Shown here: positions 6,474 through 38,464 of the stretch, in pieces
Layout: each line of letters begins with the position of its first letter
Position numbering within the stretch: position 1 is the first letter of the stretch
Origin: a virus
Virus record (IMG/VR): IMGVR_UViG_3300045988_062043
Length of the DNA stretch: 41,668 nt
Strand: one strand, 5' to 3'
The notes under the pieces: generated by a model
Told to the model about the DNA's origin: nothing
The model's input: only the letters and a program-made list of their open reading frames with translations
The model's database searches: none
Position numbers and translations under genes: made by a program

Positions 6474-6620
6474 ATGGAGTGTAAATGCGCAAAATGCGGA
6501 GAAGTACGGGAAATCGTCTGTAGAGTAGATGGTGAGCCGTGGTGTGAGGAGTGCTTGGACAAAGCGTTGGGATTGATAGAGGAGGCAAAGCAGGCCAAAC
6601 ATGGACATCGGACTCATTGA
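6474..6620 (+). CDS. Small zinc-ribbon protein (48 aa)
   Basis: MECKCAKCGEVREIVCRVDGEPWCEECLDKAL. Begins 3 nt after the previous stop. Below the track cut-off. Overlaps the next gene by 20 nt. Confidence 0.4.
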   Translation: MECKCAKCGEVREIVCRVDGEPWCEECLDKALGLIEEAKQAKHGHRTH

Positions 6621-7476
6621 TGTGGATGGTCACAGTGGGTTCCCCAATTTGGCGTTGATGCGCTTGGCGGCATGGCACAAAGCGAGAGGTGACACCGTGG
6701 AGTGGTGGGATGGGTTTAAAACCTACGACCGGGTATACATGAGCAAGGTATTTACGTTTTCATCGGACGTGGAGACCGTCATCCGGGCGAATGAGGTGAT
6801 CCGTGGCGGTACCGGGTACAAGGACTATGGCAGTCTGCCGCCGGAGATAGAGGCAACCTCACCGGATTACAGCATGTATCCACACGTAACGCATGCGGTC
6901 GGATTTTTGACAAGAGGTTGCATCCGTAATTGTCCGTGGTGTATTGTGCCACGCAAAGAGGGGGAGATACGCCCGGCCTCCACCTGGGAGGAGATCAAGC
7001 GGCCTGACAGCCGTGACCTGGTGCTATTGGACAACAATGTCCTGGCCCATCCGCATGGCCTGGAGCAGATCGATAAGATGGGGCATGCGCAGGTACGGGT
7101 AGATTTTAATCAGGGTTTGGACGCCCGGCTAATTACGCCGGAGATTGCCAGACTGTTGTCAAGGCTGCGGTGGATACGGTTTGTGCGCCTGAGCTGCGAC
7201 ACGGCGTCTATGCTCCCGGTGATCGAGCAGGCGGCGGCCTATATGAGGGAGGCTGGGATTGCACCGTCACGATTTTGGTGCTACATGCTGGTGCAGGATG
7301 TGGACGAGGCACACCGGCGTGCGCTGGCACTGGACAAGCTTGGCATTACCCCGTTTGCGCAGCCGTACAGGGATTATGACGGCGGTGAGCCGACTACAGA
7401 GCAGCGCAGGTTCGCGCGATGGGTCAATATGCGGGCCGCGTTTAAGTCGTGTAAATGGGAGGACTTTAGAGGGTGA
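6601..7476 (+). CDS. Radical SAM domain protein, substrate unknown
   Basis: 291 aa. CxxxCxxC cluster motif in TRGCIRNCPWCIVP. Confidence 0.75.
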   Translation: MDIGLIDVDGHSGFPNLALMRLAAWHKARGDTVEWWDGFKTYDRVYMSKVFTFSSDVETVIRANEVIRGGTGYKDYGSLPPEIEATSPDYSMYPHVTHAVGFLTRGCIRNCPWCIVPRKEGEIRPASTWEEIKRPDSRDLVLLDNNVLAHPHGLEQIDKMGHAQVRVDFNQGLDARLITPEIARLLSRLRWIRFVRLSCDTASMLPVIEQAAAYMREAGIAPSRFWCYMLVQDVDEAHRRALALDKLGITPFAQPYRDYDGGEPTTEQRRFARWVNMRAAFKSCKWEDFRG

Positions 7477-7904
7477 TCATCTTGACAGATCATATTAGCA
7501 ATCAGCATGCCAAAGCCGACGCCGGAAAGCCGCGCCCCACGCTGGTACCGGTCTCGCTGATCGAGGCCGTGGCAGCGGTACGCATGTTTGGGTGCGCCAA
7601 GTACCACGATCCGGACAACTGGCGTCAGGTTGAGCCGCAGCGCTACAGGGATGCTTTGTACCGGCACTGGTTGGCTTATCTCAAAGGCGAGCAGTGCGAT
7701 CAGGAGAGCGGATTGCCTCACCTGTGGCATTTGGCCTGCAATGCGGCGTTTTTGATCGAGATGGAGGGAATGCTATCAGAGGGGAGAAAAGCCGCCCCTG
7801 TGATGGGGCGGCTTGGTGCGGGGGGGATGCGCGGTAGAGCGCACATTACAGCAGCTCCCTCACATCCACGTCCAGCGCGTCCGCCAGAGCCAGAGCATTG
7901 GTGA
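7473..7904 (+). CDS. DUF5664-like protein (family also annotated dATP/dGTP diphosphohydrolase N-terminal domain)
   Basis: DAGKPRPTLVP...FGCAKYHDPDNWR...YRHWLAYLKGEQCDQESGLPHLWHLACNAAFLIE fits the family pattern. The last ~44 codons read through a terminator hairpin and overlap the convergent gene, so the true C-terminus is doubtful. Confidence 0.65.
   Translation: MIILTDHISNQHAKADAGKPRPTLVPVSLIEAVAAVRMFGCAKYHDPDNWRQVEPQRYRDALYRHWLAYLKGEQCDQESGLPHLWHLACNAAFLIEMEGMLSEGRKAAPVMGRLGAGGMRGRAHITAAPSHPRPARPPEPEHW
7789..7814 (-). terminator. Intrinsic terminator of the reverse-strand cassette
   Basis: AAGCCGCCCC-TGTGAT-GGGGCGGCTT, a 10-bp stem, followed by TTCT on the minus strand. Lies 32 nt after the XRE stop. 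Confidence 0.6.
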
Positions 7905-8127
7905 GGGTGACGTTGCCCATCTTACCCTCGCCCTGCTCGATGCGCTGGATCTGTCTTTTATTGACGCCGGACCGCGCTGATAGCTCGTCGAGGCTCATGT
8001 GCTCACGGCGGCGGGCCCACTCCAGATTTGTGATTGGCTTATTGCGGCAGTCACGTCCGTAAGACACCAGGGGGCAGACGGTGCAGTCGCCGTCTGCCCG
8101 GATACAGTCTCCGTATTTACGTCTCAT
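7846..8127 (-). CDS. XRE-family HTH regulator with an N-terminal 4-Cys motif
   Basis: 93 aa. C8-x6-C15-x2-C18-x8-C27, then the HTH MSLDELSARSGVNKRQIQRIEQG. ATGA overlap with the upstream gene. Confidence 0.75.
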   Translation of the reverse strand: MRRKYGDCIRADGDCTVCPLVSYGRDCRNKPITNLEWARRREHMSLDELSARSGVNKRQIQRIEQGEGKMGNVTLTNALALADALDVDVRELL

Positions 8128-8462
8128 TTGATCACCTGGTTGTAGTATCCGTGCTCACCGTTGTTGCCGAGCCGCTCCACGTCATCCAGACTATACCCAC
8201 TAAAATACTTAGCTTGAGGGGTAACTCCCAGGCCGGGGAGGTCAGGGTGATGCTTGTACAGGTAACGCATAAGCTGTATTTTGACAGGCTCGGTTAAATC
8301 ATCCGGGATGCCGCCAGGCGCGGAAGCGTCCAAGTGGAGATATCCATCTTTGACCTTGCGGTCATCGGACAGGACATCCCATCCGTCCTCAGAAAACTTG
8401 ACTACTGCTTTCCCGCCGAAGCAGGACAAAGCGATAAGAGTGATCTCGTTGGATTTTCCCAT
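8124..8462 (-). CDS. Hypothetical protein, translationally coupled to the XRE gene
   Basis: 112 aa with GGAGGA upstream. No motif recognised. Confidence 0.55.
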   Translation of the reverse strand: MGKSNEITLIALSCFGGKAVVKFSEDGWDVLSDDRKVKDGYLHLDASAPGGIPDDLTEPVKIQLMRYLYKHHPDLPGLGVTPQAKYFSGYSLDDVERLGNNGEHGYYNQVIK

Positions 8463-8516
8463 TTTGCATCCTCCTTTTTTGTTGCCATCGTGAGTTTCGG
8501 GGTGAGATTTCTGTTT

Positions 8517-8768
8517 TTAGATTTCACTTTGCCATGCTTCGAATTTTGCGATCATCGTATCATCTGATACCCTGTAATACTCCACGACAATCCTCAAGTC
8601 CCCGGTCCCAGTGGCGGGCTCAACTTTCTCCCACCAGTCCCAGCCAAAGTCTCCTTGTACGTCCTCCTCGGCGGCTACGTCTACAAGCTTGTCGCTGTAT
8701 GTCTCCTCATAGTTGTACCCGCTCCCGTCAACCCACTCTTTGATCGTGATAACTTCTCTTACTTCCAT
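8517..8768 (-). CDS. Small, highly acidic hypothetical protein
   Basis: 83 aa with 21 D/E versus 7 K/R. RBS GGAGAAGGAGAAGG. Start taken at the internal ATG of track ORF 8517-8975. Confidence 0.55.
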   Translation of the reverse strand: MEVREVITIKEWVDGSGYNYEETYSDKLVDVAAEEDVQGDFGWDWWEKVEPATGTGDLRIVVEYYRVSDDTMIAKFEAWQSEI

Positions 8769-8817
8769 TTTCCTTCTCCTTCTGCCCTCGTAACCTCCGG
8801 GGCGGGACGTTTCTGCG

Positions 8818-9048
8818 TTAATATTGCCAGGTGATTTTTTGCTCGTTGTCCATATCGACCCAAGCAAGTTTATAGGTCTTCTGGAGGTCATCTCCATGAT
8901 AGCCGCTAACCGTGACATATACCCGGTGCTTCCCGTAGTTTTTCCACTCGCGCGCGTCCAACTTGTAGCTGTCATAGTAGCTCATAATTTTTTCCGCTTT
9001 CCCCGTCAGGATCTCGATAGTTCCGTCCGTCAATCCGTATTTCTCCAT
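8818..9048 (-). CDS. Hypothetical protein, first gene of the reverse cassette
   Basis: 76 aa with AGGAGGAGC 6 nt upstream of the ATG. Confidence 0.55.
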   Translation of the reverse strand: MEKYGLTDGTIEILTGKAEKIMSYYDSYKLDAREWKNYGKHRVYVTVSGYHGDDLQKTYKLAWVDMDNEQKITWQY

Positions 9049-9096
9049 TTTTTGCTCCTCCTAATTTTGATCTGCCCGGTCCCTTGCTGTGATTAT

Positions 9097-9125
9097 ATTA
9101 TACGCCAATATTGCCTAGTTGTCAA
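9097..9125 (-). promoter_or_regulatory. Consensus sigma-70-type promoter driving the reverse cassette
   Basis: The minus strand reads TTGACA (9125-9120), a 17-nt spacer, then TATAAT (9102-9097). It lies ~50 nt upstream of the ATG at 9048. Confidence 0.7.
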
Positions 9126-9132
9126 GACAAAA

Positions 9133-9141
9133 TGCTAAAAT
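9133..9141 (+). promoter_or_regulatory. Extended -10 promoter (TGcTAAAAT) for the rightward XRE gene
   Basis: TGCTAAAAT lies 30 nt upstream of the TTG start at 9171, back-to-back with the leftward promoter. Confidence 0.4.
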
Positions 9142-9170
9142 TATCTGATATTTTTTAGGAGGGGTGGCCG

Positions 9171-9401
9171 TTGAATGAGTTCCCGGAGCGGTTGAGGAAA
9201 CTGAGGGAGAGCAGGCGTCCAGTGCGGAGTATGACGGTGACATCACAGTTGATGGGGTTGCACCCTGATATGCTGAGACGGTATGAGCGGGGAGAAGTAG
9301 AGCCGTCAATGGGCGCATTATATAAGATTGCTGACTATTACGGCGTCAGCACAGATTACTTAATGGGCCGTACAAACTTTCCGTTTGTACATAGACTGTA
9401 A
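9171..9401 (+). CDS. XRE-family HTH protein
   Basis: 76 aa. TTG start with AGGAGG 8 nt upstream. LRRYERGEVEPSMGALYKIADYYGVSTDYLMGRTN is a typical XRE C-terminal pattern. Confidence 0.7.
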   Translation: MNEFPERLRKLRESRRPVRSMTVTSQLMGLHPDMLRRYERGEVEPSMGALYKIADYYGVSTDYLMGRTNFPFVHRL

Positions 9402-10110
9402 CCTTTTATCATCTCAAAAATAAGAGGGAAGCCCTCCCACAAAAGTGGGAAGCAAATCCGGTAATTATGCGACAATGGGAGCGTGGGGGCGAATGCCTCC
9501 CGCTCCCTTCCATTTCCTCCTCCTTTCTCATTGCCGGGCCTCCCTCCCGGCAGCGGCACGCAGGCAAAGCCGTAAACCTGCAACATAGCCCGTAAGGGCT
9601 ATATGTCCTTGTAGCTCAGAGGTAGAGCCTGAGGGTTAATAGGCCCTCTAGAGTCGCCGGTTCGAGTCCGGTCGAGGGCACAGAAAACCACGACGCCAGG
9701 TTTACGGAGTGGCGACAATGTCGTCGCTCTACTTTAGAGGCGGACTTGTAGCTCGCTCCAAAGGCCAAGGAGCTGACTGTGGAAAGACACTATACTTGTG
9801 GATCGGGGTCGCTCACCTCGCAAGTAAAATCATTAGCGGCCTGCCAGTAGCCATAGCTGGCCGACTCCGGGCAGAATGGCAGCCTTGAGAGTCAAAACCG
9901 CGCTATCCCGCTGAAAACTGCCGTGAGTACCTGTGCACAGGTCAATGCGGTGTGACAATCTAAGTGGGACAGCGCACATATGCCGCTCCTATCTGCATGA
10001 GGATATGGACGGCCCTATGGATGTGCCCCGAGCTGCGGCGGGTGGCCCGCAGCAAATCAGGAGAGGGCAGACCCCGCTCACCGCCCTCTCCTCAATAAAA
10101 CGAAACCACA
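9402..10110 (+). ncRNA. Candidate large structured noncoding RNA region (class undetermined)
   Basis: ~710 nt without a credible ORF in an otherwise gene-dense genome. Many GC-rich helices can be paired by hand: 9477-9507, 9533-9551, 9587-9600 (GUAA loop), 9843-9861, 9929-9942, 10032-10053, 10061-10090. Confidence 0.45.
9605..9680 (+). tRNA. tRNA-like element with a non-canonical anticodon arm (isotype undetermined)
   Basis: Acceptor GTCCTTG/CGAGGGC (7 bp, 2 G-U). D arm GCTC-AGAGGTA-GAGC. T arm GCCGG-TTCGAGT-CCGGT. The anticodon stem GAGGG/CCCTC closes an 8-nt loop TTAATAGG. Confidence 0.5.
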
Positions 10111-37389: not shown

Positions 37390-37938
37390 TTATAGCGCTG
37401 CCGGATCGAACTCCATATAGGCAATCGGCGGATCACTGTCAAAGGTGAGCCACTCGCCGATCTCGACCTCCACCACGGAGGTGGTATTGGAGAGGACAAA
37501 TGCTGCTTGTACGTCAATGGTAGTTCCGGGGCGAACCTCCGTCATGAACGAATCAGAATCATAAACGGAGTCGTCCATGATGATGGCGGTTTCCAGCCCA
37601 ACTCCGTCCTGGAATGCAGAACAGGAGACAGCAACCATTGCGCTGGTGGTGTCTTCGCTGTTGTTGGTCCAGGAATATGTGATCGCAATAGCGGGGTTAC
37701 CTTCATAGTCCTCGGTTAAAACAGCGAATTTAATTTCTACTTCATAGTCTCCGAGCGTTGCAATGTTGCTTGACACCTCGGGTTCCGGAGTATCCTGCAC
37801 TTCCTGCGTCTCTTGCGGCTCAGTTTGTGTCGGAGCTGAACTGTTTTGCGGCTCTACACTTTCCCCTGGATCGGATACCGCGCATCCAGAAACCATGGCC
37901 AGCATGGAAAGCACGAGGATTAATGCTATCTTTTTCAT
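37390..37938 (-). CDS. Lipoprotein, DUF5067-like
   Basis: 182 aa. Signal peptide with lipobox MKKIALILVLSMLAMVSGC. LGDYEVEIKFAVLTEDYEGNPAIAITYSWTNNSEDTTSAM...AFQDGVGLE fits DUF5067. Confidence 0.75.
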   Translation of the reverse strand: MKKIALILVLSMLAMVSGCAVSDPGESVEPQNSSAPTQTEPQETQEVQDTPEPEVSSNIATLGDYEVEIKFAVLTEDYEGNPAIAITYSWTNNSEDTTSAMVAVSCSAFQDGVGLETAIIMDDSVYDSDSFMTEVRPGTTIDVQAAFVLSNTTSVVEVEIGEWLTFDSDPPIAYMEFDPAAL

Positions 37939-38074
37939 TTTCTTTTCCTTCTTTCTTCGCTCTATTTTTACCGCCCCGGCGGGTAGGTCACTTATCTTGG
38001 AATGGGATACCGCCGGCTGGTGATGGCCCGGCCTTGGCAGACCAGCGACCGGCCAACATCGGGGCAGGGGATTT

Positions 38075-38464
38075 TTATTTTTCTGGAGTTTTAGCATGAG
38101 CAGATTCATTTTGGGCGATTATTTTTTTAAGCTTTGCGAAACCGACAAAGGAAAGAACCATTTCAATCATCACAAAGAAGAAATATAACGGGAATAAAAT
38201 CATAGCAACAGCGTACAAAACCGCACCAGTCAGAGCAAAACCCCTGTGGTTCATAGTCCATCCTAAGATATTGAAAATGACAGCAAGCCCAGCACAGATA
38301 AGATGCGGGAATACAAGCGCTGTTGCAATGCCTGCTCCGATCGCTTCAGCTCCATCCACGCCGGAATTAGTGCCAGTCCAATAAGAAATGCTGTACAATA
38401 TGTAAGCAATTCCTATCACTGCGGAAATGAGCAACAATACGCTACGCTTTTTCTTTACCTTCAT
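38075..38464 (-). CDS. Integral membrane protein (about 4 TM)
   Basis: 129 aa with an AAGGAGGAAGAGG RBS. Four hydrophobic segments. Confidence 0.65.
   Translation of the reverse strand: MKVKKKRSVLLLISAVIGIAYILYSISYWTGTNSGVDGAEAIGAGIATALVFPHLICAGLAVIFNILGWTMNHRGFALTGAVLYAVAMILFPLYFFFVMIEMVLSFVGFAKLKKIIAQNESAHAKTPEK

What the first reader, a model, noticed from the sequence alone, without database searches (positions are those of the whole stretch)
7789..9125. Reverse-strand four-gene cassette driven by a perfect TTGACA-17-TATAAT promoter and ending in a Cys4-XRE regulator
Seen: four genes are embedded between the rightward early operon and the packaging genes, and they run leftward from a textbook consensus promoter (9125-9097) to their own terminator (7814-7789).
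- A 76-aa protein.
- An 83-aa protein with 21 acidic versus 7 basic residues.
- A 112-aa protein.
- A 93-aa XRE HTH with an N-terminal C-x6-C-x2-C-x8-C motif, translationally coupled to the 112-aa gene by an ATGA overlap.

The upstream DUF5664 gene loses its natural end. Its last ~44 codons read through the cassette terminator and overlap the XRE gene by 59 nt, which is what an insertion would produce.

Established: small, strongly acidic phage proteins are often DNA mimics or anti-defence factors. A coupled unknown-plus-HTH pair is the usual toxin-antitoxin or defence-regulator layout. An MqsA-type antitoxin also combines a zinc finger with an XRE HTH.

Inference: this is an autonomous moron with a counter-defence, exclusion or TA-like function.
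Basis: partly seen in the sequence, partly recalled or inferred. Interest (0 to 1): 0.65.

Follow-up and report, generated by a model that had tools for sequence, protein, structure and literature searches.

The report
Self-repressed accessory gene cassette in prophage
A 1.4-kb block in a gut-bacterium (Intestinimonas) prophage carries its own perfect promoter, three small proteins of unknown function and a four-cysteine DNA-binding regulator; it is one version of a widespread, undescribed cassette family in which promoter and regulator stay fixed while the small, often very acidic, cargo genes are swapped, a layout best known from phage anti-defence (anti-CRISPR) operons.

Summary
There are four real leftward genes, a unique perfect TTGACA-17-TATAAT promoter and a strong terminator hairpin. 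The upstream dGTP_diPhyd_N (ex-DUF5664) gene reads 44 codons into the block.

Comparative data show a discrete accessory block, about 7787-9156. Only 7 of 54 phages with closely related terminases carry it. Relatives without it have only rightward genes at that site.

Sampling by the Cys4-XRE regulator gave 64 unique cassettes.
- All 49 unique regulator variants keep C-x6-C-x2-C-x8-C.
- The promoter is near-perfect, with a 16-bp palindrome (ACGCTAATATTAGCGT) in its spacer.
- The cargo falls into at least 12 unrelated sets of small proteins, and nine cargo families have pI about 4.1.
- No cargo matches Pfam, PHROGs, PADLOC or PDB. The 112-aa protein models confidently (pLDDT 90) but has no fold match.

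The best reading is an acr-aca-like operon: a burst of cargo expression on DNA entry, then autorepression by the Cys4-XRE. The regulatory logic is well supported. The anti-defence role is inferred from architecture only.

A toxin-antitoxin or MqsA reading is disfavoured. Host: Intestinimonas butyriciproducens. Verdict: a new variant of a known kind, with moderately high interest.

The parts
7787..9156 (.). The whole accessory cassette: a block present or absent between the last rightward early gene and the rightward HTH gene.
   Evidence: Homology to cassette-less relatives (L100, L069, L079, L082, L071) stops at 7768 and resumes at 9157-9172. Cassette-bearing relatives with other left flanks align from 7787 or 7822. 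Only 7 of 54 TerL-anchored loci carry it.
9097..9125 (-). Perfect sigma-70-type promoter TTGACA-N17-TATAAT that drives the cassette.
   Evidence: 12/12 match. Unique in the window, with 0 matches in 100 shuffles. Conserved in all cassette types.
9102..9117 (.). Operator O1, a palindrome in the promoter spacer that abuts the -10 box (ACGCCAATATTGCCTA; core GCCAATATTGCC at 9104-9115). It is the predicted binding site of the Cys4-XRE dimer.
   Evidence: The family consensus is ACGCTAATATTAGCGT, inside TTGACattacGctAATATTaGCGTATAaT, from 25 unique promoters. This is the only match in the window. Binding is inferred, not shown.
9131..9146 (.). O2-like second operator or AT-rich upstream element just upstream of -35 (ATGCTAAAATTATCTG). 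It could also act as an extended -10 (TGcTAAAAT, 9134-9142) for rightward transcription of the HTH gene.
   Evidence: It matches 12 of 16 positions of the second palindrome ATGCTAATATTAGCAT. An O2-like site lies upstream of -35 in 27 of 64 cassettes, about 31 nt centre-to-centre from O1 where measured (L140). The stretch is conserved in all window-type loci and in L081.
8818..9048 (-). Cargo gene 1: 76-aa protein of unknown function (pI 6.1).
   Evidence: ORF with AGGAGG ribosome-binding site. dN/dS 0.09. No Pfam, PADLOC, NCBIfam or PDB match; only a weak phrog_5091 hit, E 0.0027. A 62-aa relative precedes a different acidic cargo in L164.
8517..8768 (-). Cargo gene 2: 83-aa strongly acidic protein (21 D+E, 7 K+R, pI 4.05) with an FGWDWWE motif.
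   Evidence: dN/dS 0.19. No family or PDB match. A 38%-identical homolog lies in an early operon of Dulem virus 39, after a Cro-type HTH gene.
8124..8462 (-). Cargo gene 3: 112-aa protein, a member of a rare phage family (conserved GYLH...PGLGATPQxxYF...IGNxG). It has four beta strands followed by three helices.
   Evidence: 39 representative clusters among 1.84 billion proteins. The AF2 model has pLDDT 89.8 and pTM 0.84. Foldseek against PDB and BFVD gave no hit with E<0.7 or TM>0.3. dN/dS 0.17. The family occurs fused to a Cas_VVA1548/Csx16 ring-nuclease-like domain (P0017) and to the Cys4 mini-domain (P0041).
7846..8127 (-). Terminal regulator: 93-aa protein with an N-terminal C-x6-C-x2-C-x8-C mini-domain (residues 1-30) and an XRE/HTH_3 domain (residues 35-93). 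Predicted autorepressor.
   Evidence: Pfam HTH_3 E 9.5e-10. The closest solved sequence is controller protein C.AhdI, E 3e-4 with a profile. All 49 unique variants keep the four Cys. dN/dS 0.08. The family has 1944 clusters at E<=1e-8.
7789..7814 (-). Intrinsic terminator of the cassette: GC-rich 10-bp stem, 6-nt loop, then UUUUCU.
   Evidence: Sequence. dG -21.8 kcal/mol. Stem conserved with an inverted loop in L024; absent in L012.
7769..7904 (+). Non-homologous 3' extension of the dGTP_diPhyd_N gene (about 44 codons). It is translated from the junction, the terminator hairpin and the antisense strand of the XRE gene, with a 59-nt overlap.
   Evidence: The same tail is attached to unrelated upstream proteins in relatives. 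Natural ends are seen where the cassette is absent or spaced away.
9171..9401 (+). Flanking gene, not part of the cassette: a 76-aa RstR/XRE-type HTH protein transcribed divergently from the cassette.
   Evidence: HTH_3 E 5e-10; NCBIfam phage_RstR E 9e-13, below cutoff. tblastn matches (45-95% identity) lie upstream of TerL in 50 of 54 related phages, mostly without the cassette. In L100 it overlaps the stop of the preceding rightward gene.

Best explanation
The block at about 7787-9156 is an autonomous accessory cassette that is exchanged horizontally among phages.

Proposed mechanism:
1. When the phage DNA enters the cell, or when repression lapses, host RNA polymerase fires the consensus promoter at 9125-9097 without any phage factor.
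2. One mRNA is made that encodes three small cargo proteins (76 aa, acidic 83 aa, 112 aa) and, last, the Cys4-XRE regulator, which is translationally coupled to the 112-aa gene.
3. As the regulator accumulates, its dimer binds the palindrome in the promoter spacer (O1, 9102-9117), and probably a second site just upstream of -35. This shuts the promoter down to a low level.
4. The hairpin at 7789-7814 ends the transcript.

The cargo proteins are the payload. By analogy with acr-aca operons, they most likely bind and inhibit host defence components or other host factors early in infection.

What is shown: the anatomy, the presence/absence polymorphism, the conserved promoter-plus-palindrome-plus-regulator frame, and the variable cargo. 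What is inferred: DNA binding and autorepression (strong inference), early timing, and the anti-defence role of the cargo (moderate inference).
For: Anatomy:
- A unique perfect promoter, a terminator, and four genes under purifying selection.

Accessory nature:
- Only 7 of 54 phages with 83-87%-identical TerL carry the cassette.
- Relatives with the same dGTP_diPhyd_N and HTH genes have only rightward genes between them.
- The same cassette sits in phages with different terminases and portals, and with different upstream genes.
- A variant cassette (128 aa, acidic 86 aa, Cys4-XRE, same promoter) sits at another site, between the leader and terS, in L081. Another lies near lysis genes in MT835513.

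Fixed frame, variable cargo:
- Among 64 unique cassettes the promoter is near-perfect, with the conserved 16-bp palindrome ACGCTAATATTAGCGT in the spacer.
- All 49 unique XRE variants keep the four Cys.
- Cargo falls into at least 12 unrelated sets of 58-185-aa proteins. Nine cargo families have pI about 4.1.

Fit to the acr-aca operon layout as used by AcaFinder (PMC9765179):
- Same strand, gaps under 250 bp, proteins under 200 aa, an HTH protein under 150 aa.
- An inverted repeat overlaps the promoter, as for Aca proteins (PMC13551039; PMC6765145).

Other points:
- The consensus operator occurs only once in the window, at the cassette's own promoter, which fits autoregulation.
- One relative of the 112-aa family is fused to a Csx16 (Cas_VVA1548) ring-nuclease-like domain. 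Csx16 degrades cA4, and ring nucleases are used by phages as anti-CRISPRs (PMC12409355).
Against: - No cargo protein matches any known anti-defence, Acr or defence family in Pfam, PHROGs, PADLOC, NCBIfam or PDB. A dedicated Acr/anti-defence library was not available.
- The XRE profile did not retrieve solved Aca proteins at E<=1. Only a weak hit to the HTH of AcrIIA15 appeared, E 0.045.
- The window's O1 departs from the 16-bp consensus at 3 positions, and O2 at 4.
- Binding, timing and phenotype are all untested.
- A strong constitutive-type promoter with a terminator, opposed to the neighbouring genes, is also what a lysogeny-expressed moron looks like.
- The Csx16 fusion is a single case among 39 clusters.
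- The 112-aa protein is not acidic and has conserved polar residues, so it could be an enzyme or a ligand binder rather than an inhibitor.
Confidence: 0.5

Rival explanations
1. Lysogenic-conversion or superinfection-exclusion moron. The cassette is expressed from the prophage at a level set by the Cys4-XRE, and its small proteins protect the lysogen, for example by blocking other phages, or alter host physiology.
For: It has its own promoter and terminator and is oriented against the flanking lytic genes. In 45 of 64 cassettes the upstream flank codes on the opposite strand. It shows presence/absence polymorphism among related prophages. It occurs in integrated prophages on contigs of 193-278 kb.
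Against: Cargo proteins are very small (58-185 aa), frequently pI about 4.1, and lack predicted enzymatic or membrane domains. Known prophage defence cargo is usually larger, and PADLOC finds nothing. The phage already has candidate conversion genes in its lysogeny module, such as the DUF5067 gene. Tight autorepression through a palindrome inside the promoter fits burst-then-off expression better than steady expression.
Confidence: 0.2
2. Developmental switch. The Cys4-XRE and the divergent HTH (9171-9401) form a second genetic switch at the early/late boundary that times late (packaging) gene expression. The three small proteins would be co-regulators or middle genes.
For: The cassette sits immediately upstream of a conserved HTH gene, a structured leader and terS. 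The promoter region is back-to-back with the HTH gene. The rightward HTH has tblastn matches upstream of TerL in 50 of 54 relatives.
Against: 46 of 54 relatives with closely related TerL have neither the cassette nor a Cys4-XRE within 6 kb upstream of TerL, and most keep a match to the HTH gene. Related cassettes sit elsewhere in other phages, before terS in L081 and near lysis genes in MT835513. Cargo is interchangeable. The XRE operator occurs only at its own promoter in this genome.
Confidence: 0.12
3. Type II toxin-antitoxin module. The 112-aa protein is a toxin and the translationally coupled Cys4-XRE is its antitoxin and autorepressor (MqsRA/HigBA-like order). The 76- and 83-aa genes would be passengers.
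For: Toxin-first order with an ATGA overlap and an HTH second gene. A fusion of the Cys4 mini-domain to the 112-aa family next to an XRE gene (P0041, L018/L019) suggests a functional link. There are weak HTH similarities to HipB and HigA.
Against: The same XRE (51-100% identity) is coupled to at least 12 unrelated partners, and it has no extra domain for toxin binding other than the invariant Cys4 motif. The 112-aa family occurs without an XRE (L017) and as the C-terminal domain of 200-360-aa phage proteins. The confident model matches no toxin fold. The HigB hit has E 0.31, which is noise. MqsA model TIGR03830 does not hit the XRE. The family is rare and phage-restricted, unlike TA toxins.
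Confidence: 0.07

Closest known systems
acr-aca (anti-CRISPR / anti-CRISPR-associated) operons, e.g. acrIF-aca1 of Pseudomonas phage JBD30 and acrIF8-aca2 of Pectobacterium phage ZF40
   Same: A short operon of small proteins lacking known homologs, often acidic, ending in a small HTH regulator. A strong promoter with an inverted repeat overlapping it, through which the regulator represses its own operon. A conserved regulator with variable cargo, which is the basis of guilt-by-association discovery. Patchy presence among related phages (PMC9765179, PMC13551039, PMC6765145, PMC9410906).
   Different: No cargo is homologous to a known Acr. The regulator is not detectably related to solved Aca proteins. 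It carries an N-terminal four-cysteine mini-domain; PMC13551039 still poses zinc-finger-type regulation of acr operons as an open question, so I found none described for an Aca. The host clade is Oscillospiraceae (Intestinimonas). Anti-defence activity is untested.
Controller (C) proteins of restriction-modification systems (C.AhdI, C.BclI)
   Same: The closest solved sequences to the HTH domain are C.AhdI (E 3e-4) and C.BclI (E 0.0056). Both are small dimeric XRE regulators that bind palindromic operators, often two adjacent sites, at their own promoter to time expression of a co-transcribed payload.
   Different: No restriction enzyme or methyltransferase is present in the cargo. C proteins lack the Cys4 extension and usually come first in the operon, not last.
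Phage morons (as defined for lambdoid phages)
   Same: An extra transcription unit with its own promoter and terminator, inserted between genes that are adjacent in related phages.
   Different: GC content is not distinct (0.518 against 0.528). The unit has its own dedicated repressor and belongs to a modular family with swappable cargo.
MqsRA / HigBA type II toxin-antitoxin modules
   Same: A small first gene is translationally coupled to an XRE-HTH second gene. MqsA also combines a zinc-binding domain with an XRE HTH (from my own knowledge).
   Different: The cysteine spacing differs (C-x6-C-x2-C-x8-C within 27 residues), and TIGR03830 gives no hit. The partner is not fixed. The partner's fold is not RelE-like.

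Membership tests
acr-aca-type anti-defence operon | Short-gene operon: all genes on one strand, intergenic gaps <250 bp, all proteins <200 aa (AcaFinder criteria, PMC9765179) | tested here: met
   The four genes are on the minus strand with gaps of 49, 54 and -4 nt. The proteins are 76, 83, 112 and 93 aa.
acr-aca-type anti-defence operon | Contains a small (<150 aa) HTH regulator, typically the last gene | tested here: met
   The 93-aa protein with HTH_3 (E 9.5e-10) is the last gene.
acr-aca-type anti-defence operon | Inverted repeat overlapping the operon promoter, conserved with the regulator | tested here: met
   The 16-bp palindrome ACGCTAATATTAGCGT lies in the -35/-10 spacer across 25 unique promoters. 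The window copy is at 9102-9117, with 3 mismatches.
acr-aca-type anti-defence operon | Regulator conserved while the upstream cargo genes vary between elements | tested here: met
   At least 12 unrelated cargo sets lie upstream of Cys4-XRE homologs of 51-100% identity.
acr-aca-type anti-defence operon | At least one cargo gene homologous to a known Acr or anti-defence protein | tested here: inconclusive
   No hit in Pfam, PHROGs, NCBIfam or PDB sequences. No dedicated Acr/anti-defence library (dbAPIS, AcrDB, DefenseFinder anti-defence models) was available.
acr-aca-type anti-defence operon | Regulator belongs to a named Aca family (Aca1-Aca14) | tested here: inconclusive
   The profile search of PDB at E<=1 returned C.AhdI, 434 Cro, HipB, HigA and AcrIIA15, but no Aca entry. 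Aca HMMs were not available.
acr-aca-type anti-defence operon | Cargo inhibits a host defence system; regulator represses the operon in vivo | not testable with these tools
   Needs EMSA or reporter assays and phage or plasmid challenge assays.
Type II toxin-antitoxin (MqsRA/HigBA-like) | Antitoxin belongs to the MqsA (CxxCG-CxxCG-HTH) family | tested here: not met
   NCBIfam TIGR03830 does not hit the Cys4-XRE at E<=1. The cysteine spacing is C-x6-C-x2-C-x8-C.
Type II toxin-antitoxin (MqsRA/HigBA-like) | Toxin has a known toxin fold or family | tested here: not met
   The AF2 model (pLDDT 89.8) has no Foldseek hit in PDB, best E 1.9. The profile hit to HigB has E 0.31. There is no Pfam or PADLOC hit.
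Type II toxin-antitoxin (MqsRA/HigBA-like) | Toxin and antitoxin co-occur as a fixed pair | tested here: not met
   The XRE pairs with at least 12 other partners. The 112-aa family occurs without an XRE in L017 and as a domain of larger proteins.
Phage moron | Own promoter and terminator | tested here: met
   Sequence signals only. Activity was not tested.
Phage moron | Lies between genes that are adjacent in related phages | tested here: met
   In L100 the dGTP_diPhyd_N gene, a 120-aa gene and the HTH gene are all rightward. Homology breaks at 7768 and resumes at 9157. 7 of 54 loci carry the cassette.
Phage moron | Base composition distinct from the neighbours | tested here: not met
   GC is 0.518 against 0.528 for the window. 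There is only a local dip to 0.46-0.50 over 8300-9200.
C-protein-controlled restriction-modification system | Co-transcribed restriction endonuclease and/or methyltransferase | tested here: not met
   No such domain is found in any cargo protein.

The most novel reading that the evidence does not exclude
The Cys4-XRE defines a large, undescribed family of anti-defence 'cargo slots' in phages of gut Oscillospiraceae: 1944 protein clusters at 90% identity (E<=1e-8). Its regulator would be a new kind of Aca with a metal-binding (Zn or Fe-S) sensor mini-domain. Its at least 12 cargo sets, including the fold-orphan 112-aa family and nine pI-4 families, would be new classes of defence inhibitors, some perhaps aimed at cyclic-oligonucleotide signalling (suggested by the Csx16 fusion). 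The metal or redox state of the strictly anaerobic host might then gate how long the anti-defence burst lasts.
Probability: 0.3. Interest if true: 0.78.

Novelty: new variant of a known kind. Interest (0 to 1): 0.62.

Why it matters
Anti-defence genes of phages that infect strictly anaerobic gut Clostridia are almost unknown, because these hosts are hard to work with and the proteins have no homologs.

If the architecture means what it means elsewhere, the Cys4-XRE gene and its promoter palindrome (TTGACA..ACGCTAATATTAGCGT-ATAAT) form a ready search handle. It already points to more than a dozen candidate inhibitor families, each present on tens to hundreds of metagenomic contigs.

The regulator would also be the first Aca-like protein I am aware of with a cysteine-rich, probably metal-binding, module. 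PMC13551039 raises zinc-finger-type regulators of acr operons as an open question.

Even if the cargo turns out not to be anti-defence, the cassette is a clean natural example of a plug-and-play expression unit (consensus promoter, operator, repressor, terminator) from a butyrate-producing gut bacterium. That could be useful for genetic tools in these organisms.

Tried and rejected
- Family searches of the four proteins (Pfam, PHROGs, PADLOC, NCBIfam) gave only generic HTH hits for the XRE.
- Single-sequence AF2 of the 112-aa protein was useless, pLDDT 42. It had to be repeated with an alignment.
- Foldseek of the good model against PDB and BFVD found nothing.
- A weak SPO1_gp41 Pfam hit appeared in 1 of 32 family members, E 0.0015. 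I rejected it as non-reproducible.
- Scanning genome contigs with the family alignment failed because no conserved block was available. The single-protein scan gave one MAG contig labelled Collinsella, probably a mis-binned phage.
- My first idea, that the cassette is a conserved core module, came from sampling by identity to the cassette's own proteins. TerL-anchored sampling overturned it.
- I first read TTGTCAAGACAA (9120-9131) and TATCTGATA (9142-9150) as operators. They are not conserved and not enriched. The real conserved palindrome emerged only from the cross-cassette comparison.
- I first read TGcTAAAAT (9134-9142) as a rightward extended -10. It is at least equally well explained as half of the second operator.
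- I recalled Cas_VVA1548 as Csx20. The literature says Csx16, and I corrected this.
- A 42-aa ORF in the leader (9467-9595) is ruled out by frame-breaking indels in relatives.
- No flanking direct or inverted repeats suggesting transposition were evident by eye at the cassette ends; this was not tested with a tool.
- Nucleotide search of the INPHARED phage collection gave only an 80-nt match to Flavonifractor phage Castelnaud, outside the cassette.


Full report
**1. What is in the sequence**

The window is a complete temperate phage of about 41.7 kb. It is the same as contig ERZ28582824 scaffold_189. It has a lysogeny module at 35.6-39.6 kb, with a serine integrase, a DUF5067 protein and a CI-like XRE repressor. 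Rightward early and replication genes follow, then the packaging genes from 10117. Exact-sequence look-ups name the host as Intestinimonas butyriciproducens, a member of the Oscillospiraceae. The XRE is WP_343121244.1, and a variant of the 76-aa protein lies in the SRB521 chromosome.

- 76 aa at 8818-9048
- 83 aa at 8517-8768
- 112 aa at 8124-8462
- 93 aa at 7846-8127

The first three have good ribosome-binding sites, and the last two overlap by ATGA. The 83-aa protein has 21 acidic and 7 basic residues, pI 4.05. The 93-aa protein has C-x6-C-x2-C-x8-C followed by an HTH_3 domain.

The promoter TTGACA-17-TATAAT at 9125-9097 is a 12/12 match. It is the only one in the window, and none occurred in 100 shuffles. 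The hairpin at 7789-7814 has dG about -21.8 kcal/mol and is followed by UUUUCU on the minus strand. All four genes evolve under purifying selection among relatives, with dN/dS of 0.08-0.19.

**2. The upstream gene's tail**

The + strand gene 7473-7904 is PF18909 dGTP_diPhyd_N (the former DUF5664). Its domain covers residues 9-98 of 143. In relatives the protein ends shortly after ...IEMEG...GGET* in L011...EEHK* in L069...GKE* in L079 and ...SIHDGEGGQHEEG* in L100.

In the window it continues through the terminator hairpin and the antisense strand of the XRE gene. The same tail, MRGRAHITAAPSHPRPARPPEPEHW*, is attached to an unrelated 120-aa protein in L012 and to 153- and 281-aa dGTP_diPhyd_N variants.

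**3. Is it an insertion?**

Sampling by identity to the cassette's own proteins was misleading. All such contigs naturally carry the block, which is 87-94% identical over window 7787/7822 to about 9680. It sits in phages with different terminases (Terminase_3 or Terminase_6N), different portals (SPP1-type or P22-type) and different upstream genes.

I therefore sampled by the large terminase instead. This gave 80 IMG/VR loci with TerL 83-87% identical. Of the 54 loci with at least 3.2 kb upstream of TerL:
- 7 carry all four genes.
- 1 carries only a diverged XRE.
- 46 carry none.
- 50 have a tblastn match (45-95% identity) to the rightward 76-aa HTH gene (9171-9401).

In cassette-less relatives that keep dGTP_diPhyd_N (L100, L069, L079, L082, L071), everything between it and the HTH gene is rightward. 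In L100 the HTH gene's start overlaps the stop of the preceding gene. Homology with the window stops at 7768 and resumes at 9157, which is 14 nt before the HTH start codon.

So about 7787-9156 is a discrete accessory block in a variable slot. Base composition is not distinctive, 0.518 against 0.528.

**4. The frame is conserved and the cargo is not**

A tblastn search found a 59%-identical Cys4-XRE in MT835513, with different neighbours and near the lysis genes. L081 carries the same promoter and a 62%-identical Cys4-XRE with different cargo (128 aa plus a strongly acidic 86 aa), sitting between the leader and terS.

Anchoring on the regulator gave 80 IMG/VR loci with XRE identity of 51-100%. 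The findings were:
- All 49 unique regulator sequences keep the four cysteines.
- In about 70 loci the operon begins with a near-perfect TTGACA-N17-TATAAT.
- Its spacer contains a 16-bp perfect palindrome, ACGCTAATATTAGCGT, that abuts the -10 box. The consensus of 25 unique 29-mers is TTGACattacGctAATATTaGCGTATAaT.
- 27 of 64 unique cassettes have a second similar palindrome just upstream of -35, about 31 nt centre-to-centre where measured (L140).
- 42 of 64 have a GGGG-N-CCCC hairpin in the 5' UTR.

The window's copies are O1 at 9102-9117 (ACGCCAATATTGCCTA) and an O2-like site at 9131-9146. The consensus occurs nowhere else in the window.

Between promoter and regulator the cargo differs. There are at least 12 unrelated sets:
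- the window type (76 > 83 > 112 aa, about 20 loci)
- a single acidic 108-aa protein (19 loci)
- 89 > 64 aa
- 128 aa alone
- 128 > 86 aa
- 116 or 128 > 86 aa
- 86 > 72 aa
- 65 aa alone
- 70 > 185 aa
- 99 > 98 aa
- 62 > 124 aa
- a five-gene set

Nine cargo families have pI 4.1-4.2. None matches Pfam, PHROGs, PADLOC or PDB sequences in any informative way. All are annotated as 'hypothetical'. The regulator family is large, with 1944 clusters at E<=1e-8, and is named only 'XRE family regulator'. Most cassettes are oriented against the genes upstream of their promoter.

**5. The individual proteins**

*The 112-aa protein.* It has only close relatives in the word-indexed search. An exhaustive phmmer search found 39 representative clusters. 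The motifs GYLH, PGLGATPQxxYF and IGNxG are conserved. The family often forms the C-terminal domain of 200-360-aa proteins.
- One member (P0017) fuses it to a Cas_VVA1548 domain (E 5e-17).
- Cas_VVA1548 is Csx16 (PMC6546367), and Csx16 is a cA4 ring nuclease (PMC12409355).
- Another member (P0041) carries the same Cys4 mini-domain at its N terminus and follows a 70-aa XRE gene.
- With a 14-sequence alignment AF2 gives pLDDT 89.8 and pTM 0.84, with four strands then three helices.
- Foldseek finds nothing in PDB or BFVD; the best E is 0.8-1.9 and TM stays below 0.3.

*The 83-aa protein.* It has a 38%-identical homolog in an early operon of Dulem virus 39.

*The XRE.* The HTH domain is closest to controller protein C.AhdI, 434 Cro and HipB. 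No solved structure covers residues 1-30. The MqsA model TIGR03830 does not hit it.

**6. Most likely mechanism**

The anatomy is that of a self-contained expression unit. A consensus promoter needs no phage factor, an operator lies inside the promoter, cargo follows, a translationally coupled repressor is the last gene, and a terminator ends the unit. This predicts a burst of expression on DNA entry followed by autorepression.

The combination of a conserved regulator and operator with freely exchanged small, often very acidic, orphan proteins, and patchy presence among related phages, is the defining layout of acr-aca anti-defence operons. In those operons Aca proteins bind inverted repeats overlapping the promoter (PMC6765145, PMC9410906 and PMC13551039; operon criteria from PMC9765179).

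I rate the regulatory logic as well supported, about 0.8. The anti-defence role of the cargo is inferred from architecture only, about 0.4-0.45. The Csx16 fusion is a single, weak pointer towards cyclic-oligoadenylate signalling.

**7. Rivals**

- *A lysogeny-expressed conversion or exclusion moron.* This fits the promoter, terminator and orientation. It fits the tiny acidic cargo and the in-promoter operator less well.
- *A developmental switch acting with the neighbouring HTH.* This is contradicted by the cassette's absence from most relatives and by its different positions elsewhere.
- *A toxin-antitoxin pair (112 aa plus XRE).* This is contradicted by the regulator's many different partners, by occurrences of the 112-aa family without an XRE, and by the lack of any toxin fold.

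**8. Novelty**

I found no description of this family. The databases call it generic XRE, and the cargo proteins are all hypothetical. PMC13551039 (2026) still raises zinc-finger-type regulators of acr operons as an open question.

I classify the cassette as a new variant of a known kind: an acr-aca-like self-repressed cargo cassette with a new regulator architecture, in a poorly studied host clade. Membership in a named Aca or Acr family could not be tested, because those libraries were not available.

Noticed in passing
window 9465-9681 (+): A conserved GC-rich structured leader of about 140 nt lies at 9465-9604. Its hairpins include ATAGCCC-GTAA-GGGCTAT at 9586-9603, and the fold z-score is -3.97. 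It is followed by a tRNA-like element at 9605-9681 (Rfam tRNA 41.4 bits, above the gathering score of 29). Relatives keep the acceptor, D and T arms but carry three different non-canonical anticodon arms: an 8-nt loop UUAAUAGG with compensatory stem changes, a 6-nt loop, or an unrecognisable arm. Some lack the element entirely. It is not an ordinary decoding tRNA, and the block conserved across mosaic relatives ends at its 3' end..
   Followed up: partly
window 9171-9401 (+): The rightward 76-aa RstR/XRE-type HTH gene has tblastn matches (45-95% identity) within 6 kb upstream of TerL in 50 of 54 related phages, usually as the last gene of the rightward early operon. It is a candidate regulator of the packaging/late operon. 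In cassette-bearing phages it is cut off from the early operon and needs another promoter, possibly TGcTAAAAT at 9134-9142..
   Followed up: partly
L005 2522-3367 and L008 1216-2061 (relatives); window 6601-7904: In some relatives a deletion between window positions about 7116 and 7575 fuses the radical-SAM-like gene (phrog_9298, window 6601-7476) in frame to the C-terminal part of dGTP_diPhyd_N. The result is a 281-aa chimera that also carries the read-through tail..
   Followed up: no
window 6601-7904 (+); relatives L012/L013 8319-9563: The early region pairs a radical-SAM-like protein with a dATP/dGTP diphosphohydrolase-like domain. Some relatives add a PAPS_reduct-family protein. Together these hint at a nucleotide- or DNA-modification module..
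   Followed up: no
window 9426-9438 (-): A terminator-like hairpin with a T run lies on the minus strand, directly after the stop of the rightward HTH gene. Relatives have different hairpin sequences at the same place. What leftward transcript it would stop is unclear..
   Followed up: no
loci L128-L186 (5' UTRs of other Cys4-XRE cassettes): 42 of 64 cassettes have a conserved GGGG-N3-7-CCCC hairpin between the transcription start and the ribosome-binding site of the first cargo gene. This recalls the 5'-UTR RNA motifs bound by Aca1 and Aca2. The window-type cassette has a different 5' UTR.; PMC13551039.
   Followed up: no
proteins P0016, P0018, P0033, P0036, P0040 (relatives of window 8124-8462): Longer members of the 112-aa family share a second conserved region with the motif YN..(H/A)NEGG.GY(I/V)P upstream of the common domain. 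It matches no Pfam family..
   Followed up: no
window 37390-38109 (-): A 239-aa DUF5067 protein is encoded between the serine integrase and the CI-like repressor. It is a second candidate lysogeny-expressed accessory gene of this prophage..
   Followed up: no
L025 2805-3014 (MT835513) downstream of its Cys4-XRE: A 69-aa cysteine-rich ORF overlaps the end of the Cys4-XRE gene in MT835513. It may be a further cassette component in that phage..
   Followed up: no
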